Source of the DNA: Promethearchaeota archaeon
Lineage (GTDB): Archaea; Asgardarchaeota; Lokiarchaeia; Sigyniarchaeales; SOKP01
DNA length: 64,000 nucleotides
Reading direction: 5' to 3'
Assembly: GCA_048938025.1 (NCBI GenBank)
Contig: JBHLMP010000005.1
Span: 32,001-96,000, forward strand
Position 1 is the first letter of the stretch. Every line of letters begins with the position of its first letter. Under the pieces are notes generated by a model. That model was not told the DNA's origin and did not search any database. It worked only from the letters and a program-made list of their open reading frames with translations. Made by a program: the position numbers and the translations under genes. Below are positions 1,008 through 53,322 of the stretch, one piece after another.

Positions 1008-1958
1008 CTAATCCATGGAATAATGTTCTGGTTCTGGATGTAGTTTATTAATAAACCTATAATTAAAAATATCTTGTATTTTTAGATTTTTTTTTATATA
1101 TCCCAAATTATAAAGAGTCTTTACGAATTTCATTGTTGCTCTTATGTAGCCCTCTGAGAGAGCAATACAATATTTTGGGGATATTTTCAGAACAGCCTCA
1201 GCATAATTTTTATCAATTATTTTAAATGATTTTACAATTTTCTCTGCTGCGACTGCTGGTGATTCTCGAAGCAGATTTGATGCATTTTTATGATGGGTGA
1301 GAAATTTTAAAATTAATTCAGGATTGTTTTGAATGAGTTTTTTATGGACAAATATTCCATAGCTAGGATTATTTGGCCATAGCTCTTTAGCTTCGATAAT
1401 TAAATGAGATTCTAAAATTGTTGATGTAAATACAGCTAACGCAGGAGTTCCAACACCTGCTTCTAAAAGACCTTCTCTCATATCCAAAGCTATGAATTCT
1501 GCTTGCTCATAGTTCTTGATCTGAATTTCCTCTAACAAGTTGTATTTTTCTAAATAAAAATTTAATATAACATCATGAATAGAACCTTTACTCGGAACTC
1601 CTATTGTTTTTCCTTTAAACTGGGAAAAGACCCTATTTAAATCATTATCTAATTGTTGTTGTGTGTTGTATACTCTTTTAGCAACTACAATTGTTCCCTC
1701 AACATGTCCTCCAGCGACACATATGATTGGAACACTTTCAGCAATTCCTATTATAGCAGGAGGTAAACCCATATAACCGATATCTAGTTTATTTTCCTTG
1801 AATGCTTTAACCATAGCAGGTCCGGTTCCAAAAAGAACCCAATTTATATCTGCCTTTAAATCTTTGTTTAAATCTTCAGATTCCATCAAAATATAATTAG
1901 TATGATATGCAGTTGAAAGGTGTCCTATATTTAATCTATTTTTTTTAATATAAATCAC
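1008..1958 (-). CDS. ABC transporter substrate-binding protein, NitT/TauT/SsuA family
   Basis: FGTGPAMV..LDIGYMGLPPAIIG and GKTIGVPSKGSIHD motifs; the GTG lies inside the GGTGA SD, so the true start may be ATT at 1949. Confidence 0.8.
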   Translation of the reverse strand: MIYIKKNRLNIGHLSTAYHTNYILMESEDLNKDLKADINWVLFGTGPAMVKAFKENKLDIGYMGLPPAIIGIAESVPIICVAGGHVEGTIVVAKRVYNTQQQLDNDLNRVFSQFKGKTIGVPSKGSIHDVILNFYLEKYNLLEEIQIKNYEQAEFIALDMREGLLEAGVGTPALAVFTSTILESHLIIEAKELWPNNPSYGIFVHKKLIQNNPELILKFLTHHKNASNLLRESPAVAAEKIVKSFKIIDKNYAEAVLKISPKYCIALSEGYIRATMKFVKTLYNLGYIKKNLKIQDIFNYRFINKLHPEPEHYSMD

Positions 1959-1979
1959 CTTTTTGAGTACCTGATATTC

Positions 1980-1992
1980 TGCAAAAATTGCA
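1980..1992. promoter_or_regulatory. Palindromic operator TGCAAAAATTGCA (copy 2)
   Basis: Lies in the divergent intergenic region between the SBP and MoaD genes. Confidence 0.65.
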
Positions 1993-2082
1993 CTAATATT
2001 TAACTATTATAAACTAAATAAATAAATGCTATTTTTATTGACATAATATAGACACTTGTTATAAATTAAAATTAAAACACTA

Positions 2083-2382
2083 ATGATTTCCGCATTGATA
2101 AATATAAAAATCTTATTCTTTTCTTTATTGGCAGATAAATTTGGTAAAGATGAATTCACTTTAAATGTTGAACATGTTATAACTTTAAGAGATTTGCTAA
2201 ATCAACTGAGTTCTTTACTTGGAAGAGAATTTGAGGAGATGAATATTGTATCTGAGGATAAATTAAATAAATACGTAATTATAGGTTTAAATGGGAGAGA
2301 TATTCGACAATTTAATGGTTTAGATACTATTATTAAAGATAATGATGTGCTATCTTTTCTACCAGCTATTGCAGGTGGATAA
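2083..2382 (+). CDS. MoaD/ThiS/SAMP family ubiquitin-like sulfur carrier
   Basis: Beta-grasp-sized protein with LNGRDI motif and C-terminal PAIAGG diglycine. Confidence 0.9.
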   Translation: MISALINIKILFFSLLADKFGKDEFTLNVEHVITLRDLLNQLSSLLGREFEEMNIVSEDKLNKYVIIGLNGRDIRQFNGLDTIIKDNDVLSFLPAIAGG

Positions 2383-2406
2383 TGAACTTTTTTTTTTATA
2401 TTTAGA

Positions 2407-2419
2407 TGAAAAAATTGCA
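2407..2419. promoter_or_regulatory. Operator TGAAAAAATTGCA (copy 3, one mismatch) upstream of cysE
   Basis: 12/13 match to copies 2 and 4. Confidence 0.55.
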
Positions 2420-2483
2420 CTTAATTATTTATTTCACTAAATTATTTTCTCCAAGATAGAATATTAAAAATGGATAACTGACA

Positions 2484-3323
2484 ATGGAAGATTTTTTAAA
2501 CTGTCTAAATTGTGGCAAGACTTTAGGGGATAAAGAGAGAAATCATTATAATTTTTGTGCTGAATGTATTTTAAAATTAGACTTTCGATTAGAAGAGCTA
2601 AATCGTGAAGAGATAGATCAAAATTTACAAAAAATTTTAAATTTCTTTGTCTCTGATGTTAGTGCTGCCTTTAATAAGGATCCAGCTGCTCAATCTCTAT
2701 TGGAAGTTTTAACAAGTTATCCGGGAATTAAAGCAATTTTGTTACATCGTATTGCTCATTTTTTCTGGAAAATTAAAATGCCATTTGTGCCAAGGTATCT
2801 TTCAGAAATTACCCGGGAACTTACTGGAATAGAAATTCATCCTGGCGCTGAAATTGGAAAGGATTTTTTTATTGATCATGGAGGCGGTGTTGTTATTGGA
2901 GAGACTGCAAAGATTGGTGATAATGTAACTATTTATCAAGGCGTGGTCTTAGGAGGAACAATGACAGATCCAATCAAGAGACACCCAACCTTAGGAAACA
3001 ATATTGTTGTCGGCACAGGAGCAAAGTTATTAGGACCAATAACAATTGGAGACAATGTGAGAATTGGAGCAAATTCTGTAGTTGTTCAAGATATACCTCC
3101 TAATTCGGTAGTAGTCGGTGTTCCTGGAAAAATTATATCTCGTGATGGAAAAAAAATTAAAAAAATCGATCTTTCACATGGAGATTTACCCGATCCAATG
3201 TCAATAACTCTTTCTTCAATAAATCGAAGAATAGAATTCCTTGAAAAGCATTTAAAAATTAAATCGGATATAAAAAGAAATGATATTGAAATATATTTTG
3301 GTATCAATGGAGGAGGTATTTAA
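2484..3323 (+). CDS. cysE: Serine O-acetyltransferase with N-terminal CxxC-x14-CxxC extension
   Basis: DPAA..YPG, GIEIHPGA, FFIDHG, KRHPTLG and VVGVPG hexapeptide motifs; C-terminal GGGI. Confidence 0.95.
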   Translation: MEDFLNCLNCGKTLGDKERNHYNFCAECILKLDFRLEELNREEIDQNLQKILNFFVSDVSAAFNKDPAAQSLLEVLTSYPGIKAILLHRIAHFFWKIKMPFVPRYLSEITRELTGIEIHPGAEIGKDFFIDHGGGVVIGETAKIGDNVTIYQGVVLGGTMTDPIKRHPTLGNNIVVGTGAKLLGPITIGDNVRIGANSVVVQDIPPNSVVVGVPGKIISRDGKKIKKIDLSHGDLPDPMSITLSSINRRIEFLEKHLKIKSDIKRNDIEIYFGINGGGI

Positions 3324-3354
3324 TTAATACAATATAGAGAGGAGGTGAAAAGAC

Positions 3355-4284
3355 TTGGGAAGAATATTTAATAATATTATTGAAACCATTGGGAATACAC
3401 CGTTAGTAAGACTTAATAGGATTACTGAAAGAATTGAACCAAATATTTTTGTAAAAATTGAGGGTTTCAACCCTGGCGCAAGTGTTAAGGACCGAATTTG
3501 TATGTCGATGATTGATGCTGCTGAAAAAGCGAAAATCATTAAAAAGAATACAATAATTGTCGAACCCACCTCAGGTAATACAGGTATTGGTTTAGCATTA
3601 GTCTGTGCTGCTAAAGGGTACAAATTAATTCTTACAATGCCAGATAGTATGACAATTGAAAGAAGAAAAATATTAAAAGCATATGGTGCGGAATTAGTAT
3701 TAACTCCTGCTGATAAAGGAATGAAGGGAGCCATTGAAAAGGCTGAAGATTTAGCGAAAGACAACGATAAAGTTTTTATTCCTCAACAGTTTAAAAATGA
3801 AGCAAATCCTGAAATTCATCGTAAAACAACCGCAGAAGAGATATATAATGATTTAGATGGAAAAATTGACGGATTTGTGTCAGGAATAGGCACAGGTGGA
3901 ACTATAACAGGAGTAGGGGAAATACTTAAACAGAGAATTGGCAATCATGTGAAAATATATGCTGTAGAACCAAAAGATTCTCCTGTATTGTCAGGAGGTG
4001 AACCAGGATCACATAAAATCCAAGGAATTGGTGCCGGATTTGTACCTGATGTATTGAATACTGAAATTTATGATGATGTAATTCAAGTTAATTATGAGGA
4101 TGCTGTACAAACATCAAGAAAATTAGCTAAATTAGAAGGGATTTTTGTAGGGATTTCTGCGGGAGCAGCAGCGTGGGCAGGAATTTACATAGTTTCAAAA
4201 GAATTTAAAAAAGGAGATAATTTAGTTATAATTTTACCAGATACAGGAGAAAGATATTTATCTACAGATCTATTTGAAACATGA
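3355..4284 (+). CDS. cysK: Cysteine synthase A (O-acetylserine sulfhydrylase)
   Basis: SVKDR (PLP lysine), EPTSGNTG, GTGGT, HKIQGIG and DTGERYLST motifs; TTG start after GGAGGTGA. Confidence 0.95.
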   Translation: MGRIFNNIIETIGNTPLVRLNRITERIEPNIFVKIEGFNPGASVKDRICMSMIDAAEKAKIIKKNTIIVEPTSGNTGIGLALVCAAKGYKLILTMPDSMTIERRKILKAYGAELVLTPADKGMKGAIEKAEDLAKDNDKVFIPQQFKNEANPEIHRKTTAEEIYNDLDGKIDGFVSGIGTGGTITGVGEILKQRIGNHVKIYAVEPKDSPVLSGGEPGSHKIQGIGAGFVPDVLNTEIYDDVIQVNYEDAVQTSRKLAKLEGIFVGISAGAAAWAGIYIVSKEFKKGDNLVIILPDTGERYLSTDLFET

Positions 4285-4299
4285 TTTAAATTTTGATTG

Positions 4300-4530
4300 T
4301 TAAAGTTTCTTTAGTTTCATAAGCCAAACATCTTTTTCTGAATCTAATTCCTTTATTTCTAATAATTCCGCTAAAGATTGTCGTTTACAATTTTCAGGAA
4401 TATTTTTAAGAGCAGCAGGAAAGTCTAAAAGAACCTCTAAAATATCCCCTCTATCAAGTTCTTCAAGTTTTAATTTTGTGTAAACAAATGTCATTGGACA
4501 TACTTTCCCCCTTATGTCTAAATACTTCAT
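4300..4530 (-). CDS. tusA: TusA/SirA family sulfurtransferase
   Basis: LDIRGKVCPMT motif; ATG at 4530 preferred over the longer ORF overlapping moeB. Confidence 0.85.
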   Translation of the reverse strand: MKYLDIRGKVCPMTFVYTKLKLEELDRGDILEVLLDFPAALKNIPENCKRQSLAELLEIKELDSEKDVWLMKLKKL

Positions 4531-4559
4531 AATTTCTTTTTCAGATCCTCTTAAAATGT

Positions 4560-5366
4560 TTATTGACAAACGTCATCAATCCCATATTGTATAATTTCAA
4601 CTATATCTTTTGCATCATCCCCACATGCGATGCATCTTTCATTCCTATGAAGATCTATAAAATTAAAGGTATTTCTTAAAAGATCTATATATAAGATTTT
4701 ATTTTTTATTAAATCCCCGATACCTAGAATATATTTTAATGCTTCATTTGCTTCTATGCAGCCTAAAATTCCTGGTACAAATCCGATTACTCCAGCTTCG
4801 GAACATGACATTCCAGTTGGTCCTTCAATTATATCACCAAAAATGCATCGATAGCACGCAGTTTTTTCTTCAGGAATTACTGTCATAATTTGTCCATGAA
4901 ATCTTAAAACACCTGCTATTGTAAATGGTATTTTTAAATAAATGCATGTATCATTAACTAGCATCTTAGTTGGAAAATTATCAGACCCTTCTATAACAAA
5001 ATCGGAGTCCTTAAGAATTTCTTTAGCATTCTTAGCTGTAATTTTTTCATTTATGATTTCAATAATGGAATCAGGATTTAGCATATTTAACTTTTCAATT
5101 GCACTTTCTGTTTTCTTCCTATCGATATCTTTTGTGAAATGTAGAATCTGTCTATGCAAATTAGATGGCTCTACTTTATCATAGTCAATTAGTTTTAAAT
5201 GCCCAATTCCGGCTGCTGTTAGATAATATGCAACAGGGGATCCAAGAGCTCCTAGACCAACTAAAGAGATTTTTGACTTTAATAATTTCTTTTGACCTAT
5301 ACCCCCAACTTCTTTTAGGACGATTTGACGAGAATATCTCTTAATTTGCTCTTCAGTTAAATTCAT
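4560..5366 (-). CDS. moeB: MoeB/ThiF/HesA family E1-like adenylyltransferase
   Basis: RYSRQ, GLGALGS, SNLHRQ, CYRC and CIAC motifs; no rhodanese domain. Confidence 0.9.
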   Translation of the reverse strand: MNLTEEQIKRYSRQIVLKEVGGIGQKKLLKSKISLVGLGALGSPVAYYLTAAGIGHLKLIDYDKVEPSNLHRQILHFTKDIDRKKTESAIEKLNMLNPDSIIEIINEKITAKNAKEILKDSDFVIEGSDNFPTKMLVNDTCIYLKIPFTIAGVLRFHGQIMTVIPEEKTACYRCIFGDIIEGPTGMSCSEAGVIGFVPGILGCIEANEALKYILGIGDLIKNKILYIDLLRNTFNFIDLHRNERCIACGDDAKDIVEIIQYGIDDVCQ

Positions 5367-5427
5367 TTTTTACCATTTAAATTACAATAACTAACATAGA
5401 AATATCTTTAGTTTATATAAAATAAGA

Positions 5428-5440
5428 TGCAAAAATTGCA
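5428..5440. promoter_or_regulatory. Palindromic operator (A)TGCAAAAATTGCA(T) (copy 4) upstream of moeB-tusA
   Basis: A few nt upstream of a minus-strand TTTATATA box. Confidence 0.65.
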
Positions 5441-6016: not shown

Positions 6017-6144
6017 ATCTAACCTCAATTGAAGAAATTTTTATGTAGTTTTAAAATCTTTTAAGAGGAATATTAATTAATTAAAAATTGATACAGCAAT
6101 TATTAAAAATATCATTATTAACCTCAAAATCAGAGTTGATTTAA

Positions 6145-6612
6145 ATTAATATAATTGAATTAGATGAATCAAATATCCCTGAAATTCTAGAACTATGGAA
6201 GGAACTTATTGATTTTCAAGCAAATTTGGATCTATTCTTTATTAGAAGAGAGGATGCGCATCTAAATTATGAATCATATATAAAAGAGTTAATGAAATCA
6301 GGAGATACAAAAATCTTTGGAGCATTAGAAGATAAGAATTTACTAGGTTTTATTGTAGCAAAATTAAGTTATTATCCTCCTATATATTTACAAGAAAAGT
6401 ATGGTTCAATTGATGATATTATAATCACTTCATCTTATAGGAGAATGGGAGTAGGTAGTATGTTATTGGAGAGAGCTTTTGGCTGGTTTAATTCTCGAGG
6501 ATTAATACGCGTTGAGTTAAATGTAGTAAAACAGAATCAAGGGGCATACTCCTTTTATTTAAAACACGGTTTTAAGGATTATATGCATAAATTATTTCTT
6601 GAAATTAAATAA
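6145..6612 (+). CDS. GNAT N-acetyltransferase (probable ATT start at 6145)
   Basis: YRRMGVGS and N..AYSFY.K.GF motifs; the N-terminal strand/helix lies upstream of the first TTG (6226). Confidence 0.85.
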   Translation: MNIIELDESNIPEILELWKELIDFQANLDLFFIRREDAHLNYESYIKELMKSGDTKIFGALEDKNLLGFIVAKLSYYPPIYLQEKYGSIDDIIITSSYRRMGVGSMLLERAFGWFNSRGLIRVELNVVKQNQGAYSFYLKHGFKDYMHKLFLEIK

Positions 6613-9662: not shown

Positions 9663-10496
9663 TTAACATACTATAGGTGGTTCTGGAGGATTACCTAACA
9701 GTTCCATCATCATCTGTTGGAAATTATCAAAATGCCCTGGTAGTGTTTTTTGGACAAAAAATGCCTCGGCTGCCTTTAGATTAACTTTCCTCCCTAGAGT
9801 AGTTGATATTGATTTTAAGAGTCGTTCAGCATAGTTAGTAAGTTTCTTTAATTCTTCTGGAGACACATTAGAAGGATCAATGTCAGATATAAATAATCGA
9901 GCTAAAAGTTCAAATGTAGCTTCAAATTTAAGTGCTGCTTTAACTTTTATTTCAATGGTCGAAGAAATGTCAACAAAACAGTTTGGTACATGCCCAAGTA
10001 ATCCCATAAACCAGACTTCAGAACAAGCATAAGGAATGATATCATTTTTAATTTGCTCGGAATATAATAATGGAAATGCCGCAAAAGCACCAGCTTCTGC
10101 TGCCATACGTCCTACTATTACATGATCTGGATGAACTTCATAAGAAACCCATGGATCAAAAGTAACAATTCTATCTGCTTTTAGTTTCCTAACATAATAA
10201 ACCAGTCTTTCACGTAATTTGGCACCATCTATAAATCCGGCATCTGGATAACCAAGCATTATAGTATCTTTCACTCCGAGTATCTCATTTGCAGCTCTTA
10301 GTTCCTTTTCTCTCATTTCAGCAACATCTTTCTTAGTTAAATCTGTTCTTAATGTACCCACATCGCCAGTGGTGACACAAAGGGTGTATATATTATGCCC
10401 CTCTTCTGCCCATTTGGCTATTGTTCCTGCACAGAATAAGGTTAAATCATCAGGATGAGCAAAAATGGCAAGAATATTCAATGGTTTTGGTTCTAT
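9663..10496 (-). CDS. PIG-L/LmbE family deacetylase
   Basis: AHPDD and HPDH motifs; start is TTG 10481 or ATA 10496 (5 nt after GGTGA). Confidence 0.88.
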   Translation of the reverse strand: MEPKPLNILAIFAHPDDLTLFCAGTIAKWAEEGHNIYTLCVTTGDVGTLRTDLTKKDVAEMREKELRAANEILGVKDTIMLGYPDAGFIDGAKLRERLVYYVRKLKADRIVTFDPWVSYEVHPDHVIVGRMAAEAGAFAAFPLLYSEQIKNDIIPYACSEVWFMGLLGHVPNCFVDISSTIEIKVKAALKFEATFELLARLFISDIDPSNVSPEELKKLTNYAERLLKSISTTLGRKVNLKAAEAFFVQKTLPGHFDNFQQMMMELLGNPPEPPIVC

Positions 10497-10618
10497 TTAA
10501 ATCACCTTTTTTTAAATTAAATTAAAGATCTATGAATGAAATAAAAATACTTTATAGATTTATAAATAATTATACTTGGGTACTTACAAATTATAGCAAA
10601 ATATACTATAATAAAAGT

Positions 10619-12306: not shown

Positions 12307-12314
12307 ATATATAA

Positions 12315-13421
12315 TTAAAGTTTTACCATCGTCCCACATTGGGGACAAGTATTTACTTTCTCTGTTAATTTCATCCCACAAAATCTACAGGTATAAGAAA
12401 ATTCTTTAGGTACTTCTTCTTCCTCTTTTATATGAGAAACCTCAATTATTGGCTTTTTTTCCTCTTTTTTTGAAATTGGTGGAGTAGGTTGCATTTCTAC
12501 AGTTTTTTTTTGAGGAACTTCTGTTATCACATTCTCTACTTTTGAGATTGGCGAAGTTGGTTGTACATCGTCAGTTTTTATCTGTGGGACTTCCATTATT
12601 GGCTTCTTTTCCTCTTTTTCTAAAAGTGGTGGAGTGGGTTGTATTTCTTCAAATTTTACACCACAATTATTACAAAATTTTGACTCTAAGGGTATTTTCT
12701 GTCCACAGTGAGGACAAGTTTTCATTGGTTTCTCTTCTATTTTCTCTGGGATTGATGGAATCGGTTCTAGCTCTTCTGCTTTTTTTTGATAAACATCAGC
12801 TACAAAATAATGAAGTTCTTCATTACGTAAAGTTGAATCTATTTTTCCATTGGTTATCAAATTATTTAAAATCATTCGAAGATTTTCTCTGATATATTTT
12901 CTTTCATTATGTGTTATTACAGAATTTTCTAATCTTACACCCAAAGCAGAAACTGTGAGCGCAGATCCTTTATTTTCTTTTAAATAATTATATACAATAT
13001 TTTCGATGTTTTTCATAGAGATTTCAGATTTTTGTTCTTGGCTTATAGGTGGTTTTGCACTTACAGCAGCAATAAATGTTACTATAGCACTCAAGACCCA
13101 AATTATTGTTTCCATACTATAATATAATCCCCCATAAGAATTAAAAAAAAAGAGAAATGATACAATAAGAATCACACCATTTATAAAATATAACATACGT
13201 GCGTTCCAAGGTAAATCTCTTCCTGTATCAAAAATGTTTTTACTAGTATATGCATAATCTGTAGAATCCCAATAAATCGCAATAAATTGTATGATAATAC
13301 AGACTATATATAATGTAATTACTGTGTTGATAATTGGGATATAATACAACAAATATTGTAAAAAAATTAAAATAAATAGTAGAAGAATGCCATAAAAAGC
13401 AAATTTAATTGATTCCTTAAT
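12315..13421 (-). CDS. Membrane protein with two zinc ribbons and a Pro/Glu-rich repeat linker
   Basis: N-terminal TMs; CPHCG..CNNCG and CRFCG..CPQCG; three QPTxP..EV repeats; the first TM lies upstream of TTG 13352 (ATT 13421 or ATA 13424). Confidence 0.7.
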   Translation of the reverse strand: MKESIKFAFYGILLLFILIFLQYLLYYIPIINTVITLYIVCIIIQFIAIYWDSTDYAYTSKNIFDTGRDLPWNARMLYFINGVILIVSFLFFFNSYGGLYYSMETIIWVLSAIVTFIAAVSAKPPISQEQKSEISMKNIENIVYNYLKENKGSALTVSALGVRLENSVITHNERKYIRENLRMILNNLITNGKIDSTLRNEELHYFVADVYQKKAEELEPIPSIPEKIEEKPMKTCPHCGQKIPLESKFCNNCGVKFEEIQPTPPLLEKEEKKPIMEVPQIKTDDVQPTSPISKVENVITEVPQKKTVEMQPTPPISKKEEKKPIIEVSHIKEEEEVPKEFSYTCRFCGMKLTEKVNTCPQCGTMVKL

Positions 13422-13586
13422 TATAAGTCAACTTTTATTATTTTGATTGTAGTCTATTTATATAATTACATTTTATATATCGAACGTTTTAGTATATAAA
13501 TTTTTATTAGGAGTAGTAAGTCATTGAGAAAAATATGTAAAAAAAAAATGACTTTTATTTAAATCAATAGATCGTGATTGATTACT

Positions 13587-14907: not shown

Positions 14908-15474
14908 TTATTTTGTTTTATAACTATTTCCTATATCATAGGCATTTGCGAGATATTCTCCAACTCTCAAATACGGACCATCAGGCATTAAGAATATAAA
15001 TAAATCCATTTTTTTAAAATCTGGTTTATTTTCAGTTAGATATTTCTCTTCTGTGTAAACTTCAACAATTTCCCCTATAAATAATTCTGTTCTTTCAAGT
15101 TCTATTGTTCTAACCAATTTACACTCTATATTCAAAGGACAATCTTTTATCATCGGTGCCCTTTTAAGATCTCCATAAAATACTTCAAATACTTCGGATT
15201 TATCAACTTCAGAACCTGAATGTAAACCAACATAGTCGGTTACCATAACCATATCAGCAGAAGGTATATTAATGCTAAAAGCTTCATTTTCCTTAATACC
15301 CTTATTAGTATAATGTCTTTTTGACATTGCAACGCCAATCTGAGAAGGTGGAGAATTCAAAAGGTTAAACCAAACTATCGTGTTAAAATTTGGTTTACCA
15401 TCAACATGAGCCCCTATTATACATACTGGCAGTGGTAAAAGGGGCAATTCCATTCCTGTTTTTATCTTATTGAT
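14908..15474 (-). CDS. Flavin reductase family protein (flavoredoxin-like)
   Basis: GKPNF, FSINIP, APMIKDCPLNIEC and FIGEI motifs; start is ATG 15453 or ATC 15474. Confidence 0.88.
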   Translation of the reverse strand: MNKIKTGMELPLLPLPVCIIGAHVDGKPNFNTIVWFNLLNSPPSQIGVAMSKRHYTNKGIKENEAFSINIPSADMVMVTDYVGLHSGSEVDKSEVFEVFYGDLKRAPMIKDCPLNIECKLVRTIELERTELFIGEIVEVYTEEKYLTENKPDFKKMDLFIFLMPDGPYLRVGEYLANAYDIGNSYKTK

Positions 15475-15632
15475 TTTTCACACCTTAATCTATTATTAAC
15501 ATTGACTCTTGTCTTTTCAAACAGTTCAGAAACCCTTTTTCTCCTTATTTCAGTATCATTATCTTTCTGAGTTCTTCCATTATTGAGAAACTCAAAATAA
15601 ATATTTTCACAAGAATATCTAGTCTTATCCAT
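15462..15632 (-). CDS. 56-aa small ORF heading the MarR operon (MDKTRYSCENIY...CEKSIR)
   Basis: ATG at 15632, about 22 nt below the operator; open to TAA at 15462; below the ORF-track cutoff. Confidence 0.45.
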   Translation of the reverse strand: MDKTRYSCENIYFEFLNNGRTQKDNDTEIRRKRVSELFEKTRVNVNNRLRCEKSIR

Positions 15633-39605: not shown

Positions 39606-40181
39606 TTATAATTCTGTAGATATCGATTTATGTTTATAATATAAATTTTCAATTAGTGAATTAAAAGCCTCATGGACTCCTTGCCCTGTTTTAGCGGAAG
39701 TTATGTAATACCCAAGAAAATTTCGTTTTTTTACAATCTCTTGAATCCCAGAGTGATCTAAACTATCCTCTTTGATCAAATCGACTTTATTAGCAAAAAT
39801 CACTATAGGAATTTCACCACAGAATTGTATAGTATCTTCATGCCACTTTTTAATATTTTTGAAGCTCCGTTTACCCAAATCATTTTCTTCGAGACTATAT
39901 ACAATAATGGCGGCATTACTTGCTCTATAAAAAGAAGGACGTAAAAAATGAAAATCGTCTTGCCCAGCTATATCCCAAAATAATAATCTAATCTTATCTC
40001 CACTAATTTCTGCATCAAACTCAGAAAGTTGCGCACCAACAGTTTTAAGATAATCCTTTTGAAAAGTTCCTTGAGTAAATTTCAGAATCAAGGTAGTTTT
40101 TCCTACGAAACCATCCCCTATAACCACAATCTTAAATTTCCGAAATTTTTCTGAATCTTTCTTTGAATCGCTAATTGGTAT
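39606..40181 (-). CDS. Rab-like small GTPase
   Basis: GDGFVGKT, T, WDIAGQ, NKVD and TSAK motifs; the FKI part of beta-1 lies upstream of GTG 40127, suggesting ATA 40181 or ATT 40175. Confidence 0.92.
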   Translation of the reverse strand: MPISDSKKDSEKFRKFKIVVIGDGFVGKTTLILKFTQGTFQKDYLKTVGAQLSEFDAEISGDKIRLLFWDIAGQDDFHFLRPSFYRASNAAIIVYSLEENDLGKRSFKNIKKWHEDTIQFCGEIPIVIFANKVDLIKEDSLDHSGIQEIVKKRNFLGYYITSAKTGQGVHEAFNSLIENLYYKHKSISTEL

Positions 40182-40314
40182 TCACATCACACCATTTTTC
40201 TTTTTAATAGAAGATTAGATTTTTCTAAATATAAAATTTTAGTCTTAATAACCAATATAATTCTAAAAGAAAAAAAAGAATCCTATAAAGGATTTTAATA
40301 TTTAATCTTTAATT

Positions 40315-47909: not shown

Positions 47910-48245
47910 TTACTTTTCGCTTAAGCTACCTAATACCTGCTCCATTTTTTTTCGATATAGTTCAAATGCTTCTCGACCTTTTACACTAAGTTTCAGCATT
48001 GTTTGAGGTTTTTTTCCTTTGAATTTCTTTTCAATATCTACATATCCAGCAGATTCGAGCTTACTTAAATGAGAAGATAGATTTCCATCAGTAAGACCCG
48101 TTTGATTTCTTAAGAAAACAAAATCAGCACTCTCAACTACATATAAATATGACATTATCATTAACCTTGCCGGTTCATGAATAATTTTATCAATATCACT
48201 GAGAGGTCGGACGAATTCTTTTGATTCTGTTTTCTTTTTTACGAT
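47910..48245 (-). CDS. Winged-helix transcriptional regulator (HTH_34-type), probable ATC start
   Basis: DKIIHEPARL..F..LTDGNLSSHLSKLE..GYV; the HEPARL helix lies upstream of the first ATG. Confidence 0.85.
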   Translation of the reverse strand: MVKKKTESKEFVRPLSDIDKIIHEPARLMIMSYLYVVESADFVFLRNQTGLTDGNLSSHLSKLESAGYVDIEKKFKGKKPQTMLKLSVKGREAFELYRKKMEQVLGSLSEK

Positions 48246-48248: not shown

Positions 48249-48896
48249 TTATGGCACCTCGTTTTTAGATAATGGATACTTTTTTAGAAAATGAATAAAA
48301 AAATATAATCCGATTACTATAATTATCCCTCCTATGAACCCAAAAATAATAATAAAATCTAAAGGATTACCTACAATTGGATTTAGTAAATCGGTAAGAA
48401 AAAATCCTAATCCCCCTGAAAAAGCATAATAATATAATCTTGTAAAATCTAAGTAATAAGCTATGACACAAAACGGAATAGTAAATATTCCAAAACCTAA
48501 CAATATTGTTATAAGGAAAGGTTGAATTTGGCTATAATCTATTATACCTATAAGGCGCAACAGAAATAAAATCAAATTTACAATAAATACACCTAGTAAA
48601 AAAATTTTTAACTTTAATTGTTTTGACTTGCGTTTTGGTCCAAATTTAACGTATCCAACGCGAGGAGTTGTTATATATTTTTTACCTAAAATAAATATTA
48701 GTAAAGTTATGATGTTCCATACTAAAGAGGAAATAAGGACAGCTAAGAAACCAAGCGATTCAAAAACAAAATTAAATAATGGCCCCATTCCAACATTTAA
48801 AATTAGCATTCCAGTGAATAAATCCCATAAACCATCATTGAATACAGATCTATATGCTTTTTTCTCAATTTCCTTTAAATCAACTTTTTCGGTCAT
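48249..48896 (-). CDS. Membrane protein (DGLWD..PR.GYVKF type) of the wHTH/ABC operon
   Basis: Several TMs; ATG 5 nt after GGTGA. Confidence 0.75.
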   Translation of the reverse strand: MTEKVDLKEIEKKAYRSVFNDGLWDLFTGMLILNVGMGPLFNFVFESLGFLAVLISSLVWNIITLLIFILGKKYITTPRVGYVKFGPKRKSKQLKLKIFLLGVFIVNLILFLLRLIGIIDYSQIQPFLITILLGFGIFTIPFCVIAYYLDFTRLYYYAFSGGLGFFLTDLLNPIVGNPLDFIIIFGFIGGIIIVIGLYFFIHFLKKYPLSKNEVP

Positions 48897-49035
48897 TTTT
48901 TTCACCTTAAATTCTTAAGATATGATTCTTAAAAATATCCTTTTCATATATTTCTCCTCCCTTGATTTATTTTTTTTTATTTCTTAATTGATAAATAGAA
49001 AAAAAAATGAAAAATAAATAAAATCTTAGAAATAT

Positions 49036-50715: not shown

Positions 50716-50722
50716 TTATATC

Positions 50723-51550
50723 TTACCTCGATTTATTGCGTTTATTTCTTTTTTTACTTACGAGTTCATGACTATTTGTAATCTCCTCTCTCCAACCAAG
50801 CAAATCCTCGATTCGAGAAGCTCCAGTAATTTTTAAATATGCTTCCTCTAAATCTTTAGCACCAACAGATTCAATTATTTCTTTCGGAGTTCCCTCAATT
50901 TTTATCTCGCCATTAACTATGATACCAATTATATCACATAATTCTTCAGCAGTATCAAGAAGATGAGTGCATATAAATATTGTTTTATCTGCTTTCTTTG
51001 CTAATTGAGAGATTAAATCTTTCACCATTCTAGTCGCTGCAGGATCTAAATTCGACGTAGGTTCATCTAAAAATAAAATTTCGGGATCCTGAATCAATGC
51101 AGCACATAGACAGACTTTTTGCTTCATTCCTCTTGAATAGCCCTCTAGAAGATCATTTTCACGACCTGTCAAATTAAATAACTCTATTAATTCATTAATT
51201 CTCGCGGATATAACGTCTTTTGGCAAATAATATAATTCTCCAATAAATTCCAAGAACTCTTTTGCAGTTAGTTTAGAATATAGACCAGGAGATTCGGGTA
51301 GAAATCCACATATCATTTTCACTTTCTGACTTTCAGTTACAATATCATACCCTCCAACTGAAGCGTTTCCTGAGGTTTTCGATATAATTGCATTAAGCAT
51401 CCTTACTGTTGTAGTTTTTCCAGCACCATTTGGCCCGAGTAGCCCATAAGTTTTTCCAAAAGGGATGTTTAAATTTACTTTATTAACAGCAAGAATATTA
51501 CCAAAATTTTTAGTAAGATTCTGGGTTTTGATTGCTTGTACTTTACTCAA
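50723..51550 (-). CDS. ABC transporter ATP-binding protein
   Basis: GPNGAGKT, YSRGMKQ and LFLDEP motifs. Confidence 0.93.
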   Translation of the reverse strand: MSKVQAIKTQNLTKNFGNILAVNKVNLNIPFGKTYGLLGPNGAGKTTTVRMLNAIISKTSGNASVGGYDIVTESQKVKMICGFLPESPGLYSKLTAKEFLEFIGELYYLPKDVISARINELIELFNLTGRENDLLEGYSRGMKQKVCLCAALIQDPEILFLDEPTSNLDPAATRMVKDLISQLAKKADKTIFICTHLLDTAEELCDIIGIIVNGEIKIEGTPKEIIESVGAKDLEEAYLKITGASRIEDLLGWREEITNSHELVSKKRNKRNKSR

Positions 51551-51597
51551 ATTTTTTTACCTCCATTTTTTTTTTAAATTTTTATTTTAAGTTTTAA

Positions 51598-52713
51598 TTA
51601 AATTATTTTCAATTCGTAAATTTTTCTAGTTCCTAACCATAAAAAAAGGACGAGAAATGCACCATAGCATATTATTAGGACAAAAAAGTACAATAAAACA
51701 CTATAAATTGCGATTTCTAAATCTATTACAACATTCTGAATAATAAAAGGAATAAAAATTCCAATTATACCCATGATTAGAAAGCCAAAAGAACCAGCTA
51801 AAATCGGAACCGTGTTTTTTTTTCTTATAAGACTAACCCACTCAGCATTACGCTTTCTATAGTATTGCCATAAACCCACAAATAATACTCCACATCCAAT
51901 AGTAAAAATAGTCCAATATATTATGTCAAAAGTTAAACTTAGTGTACTCTCTGATATCAATATTACTAAGGGTCTTGAGAAAGAAATAAAATTCAGCACT
52001 CCATGAATTAATATTGCATAAAACACATTTCGGGTAAGAATATAAATAAAACCTAAGGCAATTCCAATTATAAATACAGTTGATATATGCATTATAGTCC
52101 CTGCAAAATTTGCACTCATTAAATCATCAGGTAAATGCGCGAGAGCAAATAGAAGACTTGAAGATAATACCGCGGGTGATGGGCTCATACCTCTTTGTTC
52201 TAATAAGGGAATTAATAATCTACGATAGATTAATTCCTCGTAGACTGCTGCTCCAATTGTGAGTGGAAGATAATATATCAAGATATTTAAAGGATTAGCC
52301 AAGTGTTCTAGGCTTAATAAAATAGTTGTATATCCACTCTGAGGATTTAAATCAAGCAGTCCAAAAACGTAATATAAAATAAAATTTATACTAACGACGA
52401 TAGTCAATGTTACACATATCAGGAGTATAGTTCTAAACGAATTGAAGAGTGTGAAAGGAGGGTTTTCTGCATCTTTTGCTTTGAATAGCGGAATAAATAC
52501 AAAATAGATCATAAATGCTCCTATAAACTGAGAAAGAAACAGAATAAAAAGATTTAAGATTATATAATCAAAGGGTAAACTGAAATCACTGAATACAATG
52601 AATAAAGATATTGTAATAATAAGAAAATTTAATAATGTCCCTCCAAGTGCGACCACCATCGAAGCTTTAAAGAAATTTAAAAAACTCCCATTTTTTTCTT
52701 TAATTTGTATCAT
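51598..52713 (-). CDS. CPBP (Abi/CAAX) intramembrane metalloprotease
   Basis: EELIYR, FALAH and H..LN motifs; ATG 52713 preferred. Confidence 0.85.
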   Translation of the reverse strand: MIQIKEKNGSFLNFFKASMVVALGGTLLNFLIITISLFIVFSDFSLPFDYIILNLFILFLSQFIGAFMIYFVFIPLFKAKDAENPPFTLFNSFRTILLICVTLTIVVSINFILYYVFGLLDLNPQSGYTTILLSLEHLANPLNILIYYLPLTIGAAVYEELIYRRLLIPLLEQRGMSPSPAVLSSSLLFALAHLPDDLMSANFAGTIMHISTVFIIGIALGFIYILTRNVFYAILIHGVLNFISFSRPLVILISESTLSLTFDIIYWTIFTIGCGVLFVGLWQYYRKRNAEWVSLIRKKNTVPILAGSFGFLIMGIIGIFIPFIIQNVVIDLEIAIYSVLLYFFVLIICYGAFLVLFLWLGTRKIYELKII

Positions 52714-52864
52714 TTTTTTAAACCTAAATTGAACTAATTGATATGTTTTAAATTTAATTAACTGAATTGAACTAAGAGTATAAAATATGAATTTGATTTT
52801 TCTTCTCTTATCCAGTAGGACTTTCTTAAGTCCTATTAAAATTATATTAAAGAAAGTATTTAAA

Positions 52865-52881
52865 GCTTTGTATCGCAAAGT
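52865..52881. promoter_or_regulatory. Inverted repeat (G)CTTTG-N5-CAAAG(T) upstream of the CPBP/ABC/wHTH operon
   Basis: GCTTTGTATCGCAAAGT next to an AT-rich TATA-like segment. Confidence 0.4.
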
Positions 52882-53034
52882 GCTTTATGGATCCAAATCG
52901 CGAAAAGGTATCTCTAAATATTAATTATGTTAAAATTGTAAACTATTTTAAATATAATTACGAATCTAATGAATTAAAAAGAATGTGTGGAGTCCTTTCT
53001 TGAACAATAATACTTCAATATTCGGAAAAAAATA

Positions 53035-53322
53035 ATTTTTGCAAAAATACCTGTTCTATTAGAAAAAGTGAAGAAAGAGGATTTAGATAAACAAATATTA
53101 AGAACAGCAATCTTAGCTGAATTAGATGCTATTAATCTCTATGAACAAATGGCGAACCTTACAGATAATAAAAACTTGAAAATGGTACTTCTAGACGTAG
53201 CTAAAGAAGAAAAAGAACATGTAGGGGAATTTCAATATCTTTTATTAAAGCATGATCCTCAACAACAAGAAGAATTAGAAGAGGGCAAAGAGGAAGTCTA
53301 AGAATTAATAGGAGAAAAATAA
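53035..53322 (+). CDS. Short ferritin-like (encapsulated-ferritin/rubrerythrin type) protein with non-ATG start and possibly premature TAA
   Basis: AELDAINLYEQ and EEKEHVGEF ferroxidase motifs; TAA at 53299 is followed in frame by ELIGEK*. Confidence 0.75.

What the first reader, a model, noticed from the sequence alone, without database searches (positions are those of the whole stretch)
1947..53037. Recurrent probable non-AUG initiation (AUU/AUA/AUC) in otherwise intact genes
Seen in sequence: about 8 genes have coding-like or family-typical N-terminal sequence upstream of their first ATG/GTG/TTG, or an SD that points to an ATH codon. Cases: GNAT ATT 6145 (GAGTTGA-5 nt, in-frame TAA directly before); PIG-L ATA 10496 (GGTGA-5 nt, TAA directly before); membrane Zn-ribbon protein ATT 13421 or ATA 13424 (AAGTTGA, in-frame TGA); flavin reductase ATC 15474 (AAGGTGT-5 nt, in-frame TGA); Rab-like ATA 40181 or ATT 40175 (in-frame TGA); wHTH ATC 48245 (GAGGTG, in-frame TAA); SBP ATT 1949 (GGTGA-5 nt); ferritin-like ATT 53035 or ATA 53032. 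Canonical starts in this window sit at similar 5-9 nt spacing from GGTGA (3355, 34669, 40536, 43910, 48896). Inference: this organism routinely initiates at AUH codons, i.e. relaxed third-position start selection, a step normally policed by aIF1/eIF1. Random decay would not be expected to hit only the third base of start codons. Caveat: ATH codons are common in AT-rich DNA.
Basis: partly seen in the sequence, partly recalled or inferred. Interest (0 to 1): 0.85.

Follow-up and report, generated by a model that had tools for sequence, protein, structure and literature searches.

The report
ATT/ATA/ATC start codons in Lokiarchaea
This uncultured Asgard (Loki-type) archaeon and its relatives appear to begin several percent of their genes, including ribosomal protein genes and the gene for the start-codon proofreading factor aIF1, at ATT, ATA or ATC instead of ATG, so standard gene callers cut off many of their protein beginnings.

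Summary
All 8 loci read as described. Two are ambiguous (Rab-like, ferritin-like). One, SBP, is served by a canonical GTG at 1958.

Across the 3.5 Mb genome, in-frame ATH codons at least 5 codons upstream of the first ATG/GTG/TTG carry a Shine-Dalgarno motif 6-7 nt upstream in 57 of 2057 cases. Out-of-frame ATH do so in 11 of 3136 and other in-frame codons in 75 of 11518. The 76 extensions have coding-grade codon usage, and Pfam domains reach into 9 of 10 sampled.

Independent contigs and other species carry the same codons, so this is not an assembly error. The initiator tRNA is canonical (CAU).

Unexpectedly, the aIF1 gene has no canonical start and begins at a conserved ATT/ATC in 76 of 78 readable loci. 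This recalls bacterial infC.

I estimate 3-10% of genes start at ATH. No protein or RNA data exist. One single-gene ATT precedent is in print, and NCBI already annotates the aIF1 ATT.

The parts
47910..48245 (-). Winged-helix (HTH_34) regulator gene read from ATC 48245..48243. First canonical ATG is at 48161.
   Evidence: The HTH_34 domain begins 2 residues before the ATG. Among 13 same-genus orthologs, the codon aligned with the ATC is ATC in 2, ATG in 9 and TTG in 2, and all are followed by (A/T)KKK(T/A)ES.
48255..48260 (-). SD GAGGTG, with the GGTGA-register base 8 nt before ATC 48245. An in-frame TAA lies at 48251..48249.
   Evidence: The same gaggtg(t/c)caTAA context is present in the two other species that have ATC.
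14908..15474 (-). Flavin reductase gene read from ATC 15474..15472. A downstream ATG lies at 15453.
   Evidence: Across 19 orthologs the codon aligned with the ATC is ATC in 2, ATG in 2, GTG in 1, TTA in 1 and ATA in 13. Four of the ATA cases have an in-frame TGA just upstream (part of the GGTGA, or GGGTGA in one) and no canonical codon before the conserved KVKTGWKLP. Most orthologs have TGG where this clade has ATG 15453.
15481..15486 (-). SD AAGGTG, 5 nt (in GGTGA register) before ATC 15474. An in-frame TGA lies at 15480..15478.
9663..10496 (-). PIG-L family deacetylase gene read from ATA 10496..10494. An alternative TTG lies at 10481.
   Evidence: The ATA aligns with ATG in 4 orthologs (G018, G037, G044, G012), with the same GTGAttTAA context in G018. 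Other orthologs start at the position of the TTG.
10502..10506 (-). SD GGTGA, 5 nt before ATA 10496 and 20 nt before TTG 10481.
12315..13421 (-). Membrane zinc-ribbon protein gene read from ATT 13421..13419. First canonical TTG is at 13352, inside the first membrane segment.
   Evidence: ATT is conserved in G012 (82% identity), whereas ATA 13424 is not. Neither species' first canonical codon is conserved in the other. A 33%-identical G006 homolog reads GGTGAaatTAA ATT AAA.
13428..13434 (-). SD-like AAGTTGA, 6 nt before ATT 13421. Its TGA is the in-frame stop.
   Evidence: This is not a 5-mer match to the SD template, so it was not counted in the statistics.
6145..6612 (+). GNAT acetyltransferase gene read from ATT 6145. 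First canonical TTG is at 6226.
   Evidence: Strand beta1 and helix alpha1 of the family lie in the 27-codon extension. Among 12 genus homologs the start-aligned codon is ATG in 4, ATA in 2 and ATT in 3. Two are ambiguous (GTG or ATT) and one has an ATG further upstream. G013 ATG versus G002/G049 ATA share the context aaggtgtt(c/t)TAA.
6133..6139 (+). SD-like GAGTTGA, 5 nt before ATT 6145. An in-frame TAA lies at 6142-6144.
   Evidence: In G044 the TAA is GAA and an in-frame GTG lies two codons upstream.
39606..40181 (-). Rab/Ras-like small GTPase gene. Candidate starts are ATA 40181 (SD GGTGTGATG at 40193..40185), the former ATG that is now AAG at 40163..40161, and GTG 40127 inside strand beta1.
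   Evidence: The Ras domain starts 2 residues before the GTG. G044, G043 and G001 have ATG where this genome, G051 and G015 have AAG. An in-frame 3-nt indel and synonymous changes show the region is translated. AAG shows no SD enrichment genome-wide, 2 of 325.
53032..53301 (+). Ferritin-like (EncFtn-like) gene. ATA 53032 or GTG 53068 could be the start.
   Evidence: ATA aligns with ATG of all 3 orthologs and GTG 53068 is GTA in all 3. However, this genome lacks their SD. Ambiguous.
1008..1958 (-). NMT1-type substrate-binding protein gene. The canonical GTG 1958 is sufficient.
   Evidence: GTG is conserved in G044 and G051 (TAA GTG in G051). G008 has GGG there and no canonical start at all.

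Best explanation
ATT, ATA and ATC are genuine, routinely used translation start codons in this Loki-type Asgard genus (record titles: 'Promethearchaeota archaeon').

Inferred mechanism: a Shine-Dalgarno pairing (consensus GGAGGTGA, about 6-7 nt upstream) places the codon in the P site. The ordinary initiator Met-tRNA (anticodon CAU) is accepted despite a third-position mismatch. Under strong A+T mutation pressure (29% G+C), ATG starts drift to ATH and back without loss of the gene.

Shown here:
- the SD-anchored, frame-specific signal;
- the coding nature of the extensions;
- the interchange of ATG and ATH between orthologs;
- a canonical initiator tRNA.

Inferred, not shown: that Met-tRNAi reads these codons, and that stringency is set by aIF1.

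My rough estimate is that 3-10% of genes start this way, and about one in five of the SD-led genes. The set includes ribosomal proteins L21e, L34e and L7Ae.
For: (1) SD signal. There are 2963 non-overlapping ORFs of 100 or more codons. The SD consensus was derived from 1026 unambiguous ATG starts: AGGTGA 24 versus 0, and aligned spacing of 4-9 nt in 145 of 183.
- In-frame ATH codons at least 5 codons before the first canonical codon have an SD at 6-7 nt in 57 of 2057 cases.
- Out-of-frame ATH: 11 of 3136. Other in-frame codons: 75 of 11518.
- The spacing profile peaks at 6-7 nt, as it does for ATG.
- Per codon at 5-8 nt: ATT 38/1014, ATC 14/242, ATA 22/801. AT-rich control codons score 0.5-1.1%.

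(2) Codon usage. The 88 SD-ATH codons lie in 76 ORFs. Their 2897 extension codons score 0.48 bits per codon. Real coding sequence scores 0.43-0.50 and non-coding baselines 0.07-0.14.

(3) Pfam. Domains reach upstream of the first canonical codon in 9 of 10 sampled SD-ATH ORFs. Ribosomal_L21e profile position 2 falls at residue 2, and HpaB_N profile position 1 at residue 3. In 10 control window ORFs none does.

(4) Orthologs. ATH aligns with ATG/GTG/TTG, or is conserved, in wHTH, GNAT, Zn-ribbon, PIG-L and flavin reductase.

(5) Replication. A second genome of the genus, G006, gives 8 of 276 in-frame versus 0 of 508 out-of-frame at 4-9 nt.

(6) Unbiased ortholog screen. 14 of 217 own-versus-G006 pairs have 8 or more aligned residues upstream of the first canonical codon. 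By eye about 5 of these are clearly coding.

(7) Not an assembly artefact. Other species' assemblies share the codons. Independent contigs of other runs cover the sites; for example X2 record 5 spans 15443-16064 with 0 differences.

(8) Independent precedent. A Sci Adv 2026 paper inferred 'a rare ATT start codon' with an RBS for a lokiarchaeial tubulin (PMC13394414, Methods passage read).
Against: - There is no protein or RNA evidence. No RNA run holds the region.
- SD-less cases cannot be settled from sequence. The ferritin-like gene has no SD, and GNAT and the Zn-ribbon gene have only SD-like motifs outside the 5-mer template.
- The frequency estimate is loose. The lower bound is about 50 SD-anchored genes above background. 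The upper figure assumes ATH starts use the SD as rarely as ATG starts do.
- In the ortholog screen, about 6 of the 14 'conserved extensions' look like conserved promoter or UTR DNA. Protein-level conservation within the genus can therefore mislead.
- The comparison genome G053 (another class-level lineage, aIF1 with ATG) shows a weak trend in the same direction: 8 of 422 versus 5 of 641, p = 0.09. No known-negative genome outside Asgard could be tested.
- For the flavin reductase and PIG-L genes a nearby canonical codon could also serve.
- The contig table left 595 difference rows unshown. Absence of a variant at each ATH codon was read directly only where a piece had 0 differences.
Confidence: 0.85

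Rival explanations
1. The genes start at the downstream ATG/GTG/TTG. The upstream 'extensions' are conserved untranslated leaders or promoters that happen to be open.
For: About 6 of the 14 conserved extensions in the own-versus-G006 screen look like conserved AT-rich promoter or SD DNA before a shared canonical start. SBP is fully explained by GTG 1958. The ferritin-like gene has gained GTG 53068 and lost the SD. Flavin reductase and PIG-L each have a canonical codon 5-7 codons downstream.
Against: Pfam domains begin inside the extension in 9 of 10 sampled cases. Half of L21e and a whole AAA domain lie upstream of the first canonical codon. Extensions have coding-grade codon usage. Orthologs show synonymous changes and in-frame indels. 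Four flavin reductase orthologs have no canonical codon before the conserved N-terminus.
Confidence: 0.07
2. The ATH codons are sequencing or assembly errors, or these are decaying pseudogenes of a metagenome-assembled genome.
For: The genome is a MAG (88 contigs, 5.1% contamination). Some start regions have lost both SD and ATG (ferritin-like gene; Rab ATG to AAG).
Against: The same ATH codons recur in separately assembled species: wHTH ATC in 3 species, flavin reductase ATA or ATC in many, and aIF1 ATT/ATC in 76 of 78 loci. Contigs from runs of other studies cover the sites at 1-5 differences per 540-800 bases, and a run of another sample of the likely source study covers one site with 0 differences in 622 bases. 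Downstream reading frames are intact and conserved. The SD sits at the right spacing.
Confidence: 0.02
3. Translation starts at a canonical codon further upstream and reads through the in-frame stop, by recoding or an altered code. Examples would be GTG-TGA before the flavin reductase ATC, ATG-TGA before the Rab ATA, and TTG-ATT-TAA before the GNAT ATT.
For: In three of the eight loci a canonical codon lies 1-2 codons before the in-frame stop. The lineage uses selenocysteine: a TGA in G006 aligns with a TGT Cys codon here.
Against: The upstream stops are a mix of TAA, TGA and TAG. The 'canonical codon' is the GTG of the SD core itself and would sit 0-2 nt from the SD. In orthologs the stop moves or changes type while the ATH stays. 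ORF lengths genome-wide fit the standard stops.
Confidence: 0.02
4. ATH initiation is real but uses another route than SD-guided Met-tRNAi. Options are leaderless transcripts that begin at the ATH, re-initiation after an upstream ORF, or an elongator Ile-tRNA acting as initiator.
For: Most starts in this genome lack a 5-mer SD: only 146 of 1029 unambiguous ATG starts have one at 4-9 nt. Several ATH follow a stop codon directly. The aIF1 upstream region has TATA-like A/T runs about 20-45 nt before the ATT.
Against: The statistical signal is by construction SD-anchored, with the same spacing optimum as ATG. Only one initiator-like tRNA, with anticodon CAT, was found. Nothing here tests the leaderless or Ile options.
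Confidence: 0.04

Closest known systems
Bacterial non-canonical initiation at AUU/AUA/AUC policed by IF3, with infC (IF3) autoregulated through its own AUU start
   Same: The codons are the same and initiation is SD-led. The fidelity factor's own gene starts at AUU (here aIF1). The infC logic is described in PMC4705826 (passages read). The codon classes are described in PMC4611024 (passage read).
   Different: This is an archaeon. The factor is aIF1 (SUI1 fold), which is unrelated to IF3. Use is at the percent level and includes ribosomal proteins, whereas bacteria have a handful of genes (the bacterial frequency is recalled, not taken from a call). Autoregulation is not tested here.
Eukaryotic eIF1 autoregulation through a poor start context, and near-cognate (CUG, ACG, AUU and others) initiation
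   Same: aIF1 is the homolog of eIF1. The gatekeeper gene carries a deliberately weak start site. CTG and ACG also show hints of use. The eIF1 loop is described in PMC6237735 and PMC4705826 (passages read).
   Different: The weak element is the codon itself, not the Kozak context. Positioning is by SD, not by scanning.
Sulfolobus solfataricus aIF1 discriminating against AUU in vitro
   Same: It is the same factor family. According to the review PMC4705826 (passage read), the 30S complex binds AUG and AUU mRNAs without aIF1 but only AUG with it.
   Different: That work shows rejection of AUU. Here AUU appears to be accepted widely, which implies lower stringency or lower aIF1 occupancy in this lineage.
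The 'rare ATT start codon' inferred for lokiarchaeial tubulin AtubA (Kariarchaeaceae), Sci Adv 2026, PMC13394414
   Same: The class of archaea and the reasoning are the same: a truncated fold, an RBS at the right distance, and an ATT (Methods passage read).
   Different: That was a single gene, called rare, with no genome-wide or comparative analysis.
Deinococcus deserti proteogenomics showing unusual non-canonical start use (PMC2830850)
   Same: It is a lineage with more non-canonical starts than expected (title and start of abstract seen in the listing only).
   Different: It is a bacterium. The evidence there is N-terminal proteomics, which is missing here.
Mitochondrial genetic codes with ATH starts (NCBI tables 2, 5 and others)
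   Same: ATT, ATA and ATC serve as regular initiators in A+T-rich genomes (recalled knowledge).
   Different: Those systems rely on a modified C34 in tRNA-Met and also read AUA as Met internally. Here ATA/ATT/ATC remain Ile codons, and no tRNA modification can be read from DNA.

Membership tests
SD-led non-canonical (AUH) initiation codons | The codon lies at the SD spacing used by canonical starts | tested here: met
   The spacing profile of in-frame ATH peaks at 6-7 nt (1.60% and 1.17%), as for ATG (4.57% and 2.92%). Out-of-frame ATH stays at 0-0.38%.
SD-led non-canonical (AUH) initiation codons | Sequence downstream of the codon and upstream of any canonical codon is translated | tested here: met
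   Codon-usage score is 0.48, against 0.43-0.50 for coding and 0.07-0.14 for non-coding sequence. Pfam domains reach into the extension in 9 of 10 cases versus 0 of 10 controls. This is indirect evidence; no peptides are available.
SD-led non-canonical (AUH) initiation codons | The codon is orthologous to canonical start codons in relatives | tested here: met
   wHTH: ATC versus 9 ATG and 2 TTG. Flavin reductase: ATC/ATA versus ATG and GTG. PIG-L: ATA versus 4 ATG. GNAT family: ATA/ATT versus ATG.
SD-led non-canonical (AUH) initiation codons | The protein N-terminus is Met, decoded by the initiator tRNA | not testable with these tools
   The only relevant observation is that the single initiator-like tRNA has anticodon CAT, A1:U72 and an intact GGG/CCC stem.
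infC-type autoregulation of a start-codon fidelity factor | The factor's own gene begins with a non-canonical codon conserved across species | tested here: met
   There is no ATG/GTG/TTG between the in-frame stop and the first Cys codon in 76 of 78 readable loci. The codon is ATT in 73 and ATC in 3, while the next Ile codon varies among ATT, ATC and ATA. All 15 readable same-genus loci agree.
infC-type autoregulation of a start-codon fidelity factor | The factor discriminates against that codon | not tested
   This is reported for S. solfataricus aIF1 in a review passage (PMC4705826). It is unknown for this lineage.
infC-type autoregulation of a start-codon fidelity factor | Changing the codon to AUG abolishes the feedback | not testable with these tools
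   This needs a reporter or an in-vitro translation experiment.
Altered genetic code or stop-codon recoding | One stop codon type is consistently read through upstream of these genes | tested here: not met
   The stops before the ATH are TAA, TGA and TAG in mixture, and they change type between orthologs.

The most novel reading that the evidence does not exclude
Loki-type Asgard archaea run translation initiation at a lowered, tunable stringency. aIF1, the homolog of eukaryotic eIF1, is made from an invariant AUU start, so that low aIF1 raises its own synthesis. That set-point lets AUU/AUA/AUC, and some CUG/ACG, serve as everyday start codons for several percent of the proteome.

This would be a third, archaeal instance of 'the start-site proofreader is translated from a bad start site'. 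It would sit in the lineage closest to eukaryotes. Weak aIF1 starts (ATT, ATA, TTG, GTG, perhaps CTG) recur in several Asgard families.
Probability: 0.35. Interest if true: 0.9.

Novelty: new variant of a known kind. Interest (0 to 1): 0.8.

Why it matters
(1) Annotation. Gene callers restricted to ATG/GTG/TTG truncate or lose these proteins.
- For aIF1, public calls from JGI, ENA and Logan are 70-90 aa pieces. NCBI's pipeline gives 105-113 aa proteins starting 'MKDDDICP'.
- The affected genes include eukaryote-like signature proteins that Asgard research depends on: a Rab-like GTPase, a ubiquitin E2-like and an E1-like protein, and tubulin in the published case.
- Wrong N-termini mislead structure prediction, expression constructs and phylogenies.

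(2) Mechanism. Archaeal initiation is thought to accept AUG, GUG and UUG and to reject AUU through aIF1. A lineage that uses AUH for ribosomal proteins would show how far that check can be relaxed.

(3) Evolution. A conserved AUU start on aIF1 would place the autoregulatory logic known from bacterial IF3 and eukaryotic eIF1 in archaea next to the eukaryotic stem. This can now be tested in cultured Lokiarchaeia.

Tried and rejected
- **Initiator tRNA.** ARAGORN with and without introns, a motif search, Rfam tRNA in the own genome (25 hits) and an acceptor-stem scan did not find it. It was found only through similarity to the G026 gene. It is canonical, so an altered anticodon is rejected as the mechanism. 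A second initiator-like tRNA was not found.
- **aIF1 protein.** The alignment across the order shows no obvious genus-specific change in the RKWG loop region. I draw no conclusion from it.
- **Rfam on the window.** No family matched.
- **The 80 aIF1 loci as an SD/ATH replicate.** I dropped this. The loci are the same syntenic neighbourhood in about 80 species and are not independent. Their 'other codon' rate was inflated, 129 of 7547.
- **Genomes of other families.** G026 gave 8/407 versus 3/643, and G027 gave 4/177 versus 1/363. These are weak signals of low power. G053 gave 8/422 versus 5/641 and is not significant. I could not obtain a genome from outside the Asgard phylum as a strict negative control.
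- **RNA evidence.** No RNA holder is listed for window 6000-15900.
- **Contigs laid on window 1-20000.** No listed difference falls on an ATH codon, but 595 difference rows were not shown. This is only partial support.
- **AAG as the Rab start.** There is no genome-wide SD enrichment for AAG, 2 of 325.
- **Literature searches**. The terms were: Asgard/start codon/non-canonical; archaea/AUU/AUA/initiation codon/Shine-Dalgarno; aIF1/autoregulation/start codon; Lokiarchae/start codon; 'ATT start codon'/archaea. They found no genome-wide description and no report of a non-AUG aIF1 gene. Supplements are closed and subscription journals are not covered.

Full report
**What the window is**

The window is G000:C52:32001-96000 of a 3.52 Mb, 88-contig genome. 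Its G+C content is 27-32% (29.3% for the whole genome). Relatives found by sequence carry record titles such as 'MAG: Promethearchaeota archaeon'. That places it among the Loki-type Asgard archaea. The genus is large: 40 species were sampled.

**Check of the eight loci**

The five canonical comparison starts have GGTGA at 6, 6, 9, 6 and 5 nt.

Two descriptive corrections are needed:
- The PIG-L gene is on the minus strand (9663..10496). The plus-strand ORF starting at 10532 is a DUF72 protein.
- The SBP 'SD' AAGGTGA contains an in-frame GTG at 1958.

Pfam places family sequence upstream of the first canonical codon for four genes:
- GNAT: beta1 and alpha1 lie in the 27-codon extension.
- wHTH: HTH_34 starts 2 residues before the ATG.
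- Rab-like protein: the Ras domain starts 2 residues before the GTG.
- Ferritin-like protein: marginally.

The first canonical TTG of the Zn-ribbon protein falls inside its first membrane segment. The flavin reductase and SBP domains fit the canonical starts.

**Orthologs**

*wHTH.* Among 13 same-genus orthologs, the codon aligned with ATC 48245 is ATG in 9, TTG in 2 and ATC in 2. The two ATC species share the gaggtg..TAA context. The following residues, (A/T)KKK(T/A)ES, are conserved.

*Flavin reductase.* Nineteen orthologs share a conserved N-terminus: start, then N/G-K-V-K-T-G-W-K-L-P.
- The start-aligned codon is ATC in 2 (plus this genome), ATG in 2, GTG in 1, TTA in 1 and ATA in 13.
- In 4 of the ATA cases (G050, G045, G005, G016) the TGA inside the GGTGA (GGGTGA in G045) is an in-frame stop. 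No canonical codon exists before the conserved domain.
- Most orthologs have TGG (Trp) where this clade has the ATG at 15453.

*PIG-L.* ATA 10496 aligns with ATG in 4 orthologs. Others start at the position of TTG 10481. Both sites are therefore used in the genus. Here the SD points to the ATA, at 5 nt versus 20 nt.

*Zn-ribbon protein.* ATT 13421 is conserved in G012. Each species' first canonical codon is absent from the other. A distant G006 homolog reads GGTGAaatTAA ATT.

*GNAT.* Within the genus family the start-aligned codon is ATG in 4, ATA in 2 and ATT in 3. Two loci are ambiguous and one has an ATG further upstream. G013 (ATG) and G002/G049 (ATA) share the context aaggtgtt(c/t)TAA.

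*Ferritin-like.* ATA 53032 aligns with ATG in all 3 orthologs and GTG 53068 is GTA in all 3. This genome has lost their SD, so I leave it open.

*Rab-like.* The ancestral ATG (present in G044, G043, G001) is AAG in this genome, G051 and G015. The region stays open and evolves like coding sequence, with an in-frame 3-nt indel and synonymous changes. This genome has a new SD, 5-7 nt before ATA 40181. The downstream GTG cannot be excluded.

*SBP.* GTG 1958 is conserved in 2 of 3 orthologs and is sufficient. The third ortholog (G008) has GGG there and no canonical start.

**Genome-wide test**

I listed 2963 non-overlapping stop-to-stop ORFs of 100 or more codons. I derived the SD from 1026 ATG starts that lie within 4 codons of the upstream stop:
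- AGGTGA occurs 24 times near those starts and 0 times in the control region.
- 183 of the 1026 have a 5-mer of the template.
- 145 of those 183 have an aligned spacing of 4-9 nt.

I then looked only at codons lying at least 5 codons upstream of the first ATG/GTG/TTG. An SD before such a codon cannot serve the canonical codon.

| Class | SD at 6-7 nt | SD at 4-9 nt |
|---|---|---|
| In-frame ATH | 57 of 2057 | 88 of 2057 |
| Out-of-frame ATH | 11 of 3136 (p = 5.6e-14) | 51 of 3136 |
| Other in-frame codons | 75 of 11518 (p = 8.4e-15) | 221 of 11518 |

The spacing profile has the same 6-7 nt peak as ATG.

Per codon at 5-8 nt:
- ATT 38/1014, ATC 14/242, ATA 22/801.
- CTG 4/53, ACG 3/38, AGG 2/79, AAG 2/325.
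- AAT, TAT, AAA, TTA and TTT score 0.5-0.8%.

An SD whose own TGA is the in-frame stop fixes the frame. That gives at most a small bias in the 6-7 window and none in the 4-9 window. It does not affect the comparison with other in-frame codons.

**Are the extensions coding?**

The 88 SD-ATH codons fall in 76 ORFs. Their 2897 extension codons score 0.48 bits per codon on a frame-0 versus frames-1/2 codon-usage ratio. Other values:
- gene interiors: 0.50;
- the first 20 codons of genes: 0.43;
- leaders upstream of SD-plus-canonical starts: 0.07;
- open runs in intergenic DNA: 0.14;
- the remaining 1101 pre-canonical regions of 6 or more codons: 0.21, which suggests a mixture.

For a Pfam check I drew 20 at random from the 60 ORFs with an extension of 12 or more codons. 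I chose the 10 that looked like known families and scanned them.
- In 9 of 10 a domain reaches upstream of the first canonical codon.
- Ribosomal_L21e: profile position 2 falls at residue 2, and the first canonical codon is at residue 53.
- HpaB_N: profile position 1 falls at residue 3.
- Two Fer4 proteins, UQ_con, ThiF and HhH-GPD also extend upstream.
- An AAA domain lies wholly upstream of a first canonical codon at residue 219.
- CoA_transf_3 starts at profile position 30, so the real start may lie still further up.

As a control I scanned ten other window ORFs with 10-21 pre-canonical codons but no SD-ATH. In none did a domain reach upstream. In five (Arf, AFOR_N, adh_short, Fapy_DNA_glyco, DUF3795) the domain starts 0-6 residues after the first canonical codon.

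**How common is it?**

Four estimates:
- *SD-anchored ORFs.* Among ORFs with an SD 5-8 nt before an in-frame codon near their 5' end, the codon is ATG 230, TTG 70, GTG 28, ATT 69, ATA 50, ATC 22, CTG 4, ACG 6 and other 311. At a control spacing of 14-17 nt the counts are 26, 12, 10, 45, 43, 15, 1, 4 and 596. After scaling the background by the 'other' class, ATH makes up roughly a fifth of SD-led starts.
- *The window.* 12 ORFs have an SD at the first canonical codon and 4 have an SD-anchored ATH.
- *An SD-independent screen.* I compared 217 ortholog pairs with 400 kb of the complete same-genus genome G006. In 14 (6.5%) at least 8 aligned residues lie upstream of the first canonical codon. By eye about 5 are clearly coding: L34e with AAGGTAA plus ATT, an M48 peptidase with GGTGAtaa ATT, L7Ae, one ATC directly after a stop, and one ACG aligned to ATG behind GAGGTG plus 6 nt. 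About 6 look like conserved promoter or leader DNA. One is a Sec/Cys pair.
- *Supported cases in the window.* 5 to 7 of 69 ORFs.

I therefore put the share of ATH-started genes at about 3-10%, with wide uncertainty.

**Spread**

- G006 (same genus, 400 kb) repeats the signal: 8/276 versus 0/508 at 4-9 nt.
- G026 (another family, 800 kb) shows it weakly: 8/407 versus 3/643 at 6-7 nt, p = 0.023.
- G027 (53% G+C) gives 4/177 versus 1/363.
- G053 (a small-genome Asgard lineage, 38% G+C) gives 8/422 versus 5/641, p = 0.09.

Kin are not independent and G+C content is confounded with lineage. I claim the trait firmly only for the genus.

**Not an artefact**

The same ATH codons stand in separately assembled species. 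Twenty public runs from 13 studies hold the stretch. Contigs from runs other than the likely source sample cover the sites:
- X2 record 5: 15443-16064, 0 differences.
- X4 record 9: 6008-6643, 3 differences.
- X7 record 23: 5577-6373, 5 differences.
- X7 record 27: 13286-13829, 1 difference.

X2 is another sample of the study that may be the source, while X4 and X7 belong to other studies. The difference table was truncated, so only the first piece is a direct reading.

**Mechanism: what could be examined**

*Initiator tRNA.* The own genome holds one, on contig C55. It has A1:U72, an intact GGG/CCC anticodon stem and anticodon CAT. One intron follows position 37 and a second lies in the T-loop. 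No second initiator-like tRNA was found. The anticodon does not explain AUH reading.

*The aIF1 gene.* The single SUI1/aIF1 gene (C24:2575-2913, minus strand) has no ATG/GTG/TTG before its conserved CPxC...CxC knuckle.
- All 15 readable same-genus loci, and this genome, read ...GGTTGTGA(T/A)AA..AGy ATT AAA GAm GAC.. directly after an in-frame stop.
- Among the 80 loci from named records, 78 are readable. Of these, 76 lack any canonical codon there.
- The conserved codon is ATT in 73 and ATC in 3. The next Ile codon varies freely among ATT, ATC and ATA.

In a 70-genome sample of the phylum the homologous start varies by family:
- ATT in three genera of the same family;
- ATA in families f11, f17 and f2-g5, where f11 and f17 have AGGAGG 9 nt upstream;
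- apparently CTG in f6 (GGAAGGTG plus 7 nt);
- TTG in f2-g2 and f2-g9;
- GTG in f12;
- ATG in f3, f4, f5, f10, f15, f22 and most of f20.

The ATT lies where other families have ATG: M-A-E-D-I-C versus (M)-K-D-D-D-I-C.

Review passages describe three relevant facts:
- Bacterial IF3 is made from an AUU start, which gives negative feedback.
- eIF1 is made from a poor-context AUG with the same logic.
- S. solfataricus aIF1 rejects AUU in vitro (PMC4705826; PMC6237735).

The natural inference is an aIF1 feedback loop that sets a permissive stringency. It is untested. I rate it at about 35%.

**What is known**

Five full-text searches found no genome-wide account and no report of a non-AUG aIF1 gene.

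One paper on lokiarchaeial tubulins infers 'a rare ATT start codon' plus an RBS for a single gene (PMC13394414, Methods passage).

NCBI's annotation already starts these aIF1 proteins at the ATT. They appear as 'MKDDDICP', 105-113 aa, named YciH. JGI, ENA and Logan calls are 70-90 aa fragments.

The phenomenon is thus implicit in some database records but, as far as I could search, not described. Supplements and subscription journals were not searchable.

**Verdict**

This is a new variant of a known kind: AUH initiation with a fidelity-factor gene on an AUU start, here in Asgard archaea and at unusual frequency. It has direct consequences for annotating Asgard proteins.

Noticed in passing
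G000:C24:2575-2913 (minus strand; outside the window); loci L106-L121, L214-L293, L296-L323: The only aIF1 (SUI1) gene has no ATG/GTG/TTG before its zinc knuckle. It starts at a conserved ATT (73 loci) or ATC (3 loci), together 76 of 78 readable loci. Other Asgard families use ATA, TTG, GTG, perhaps CTG, or ATG at the same place.
   Followed up: yes
G000 contigs C5 (+ oriented index 48791), C48 (ORF C48_-_102401) and C3 (ORF C3_+_6756): The ribosomal protein genes L21e (ATC behind AAAGGTGA), L34e (ATT behind AAGGTAA, conserved in G006) and L7Ae lack a usable canonical start. Non-canonical starts are therefore not confined to weakly expressed genes.
   Followed up: partly
G000 contig C52, oriented index 16165 (upstream of the window): A small membrane protein has ACG behind GAGGTG plus 6 nt, exactly where the G006 ortholog has ATG. 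Together with CTG (4 of 53 with an SD) this hints that other near-cognate codons are used too.
   Followed up: partly
G000 contig C15 (ORF C15_-_21348) versus G006: In an HdrA-like FAD protein, a TGA in G006 aligns with a TGT (Cys) codon in this genome inside conserved coding sequence. This is a likely selenocysteine/cysteine pair.
   Followed up: no
G000 contig C55, about 10639-10790 (+): The initiator tRNA gene carries two introns: one after position 37 and a second of about 30 nt in the T-loop. The T-loop intron is absent from G044 and G035. The G026 initiator has an intron in the D-arm region instead. Only 25 tRNA matches were found in the genome with Rfam's model.
   Followed up: partly
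window 48896-48905 (minus strand): The ORF finder starts this gene at GTG 48905. That GTG is the core of the SD AAGGTGA, which lies 5 nt before ATG 48896. SD-internal GTGs are a general trap for start calling in this genome.
   Followed up: partly
window 13515 and 13539: Contigs of three runs from other studies (X4, X5, X7) carry a 12-nt insertion behind 13515 and a 1-nt deletion at 13539, upstream of the Zn-ribbon gene. This is strain variation in an intergenic stretch.
   Followed up: no
loci L215, L219, L239, L242, L270 and others: Records whose aIF1 is 80-97% identical to this genome's carry submitter labels of other Asgard phyla (Hod-, Hermod-, Thor-, Odinarchaeota). One is labelled as a Nanopelagicaceae bacterium. 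These labels look unreliable.
   Followed up: no
G053 (loci L365, L366): Two tRNA-like sites have the initiator-type anticodon arm but anticodon TAT (GGGCTTATAACCC). No such site exists in the three same-genus genomes searched.
   Followed up: no
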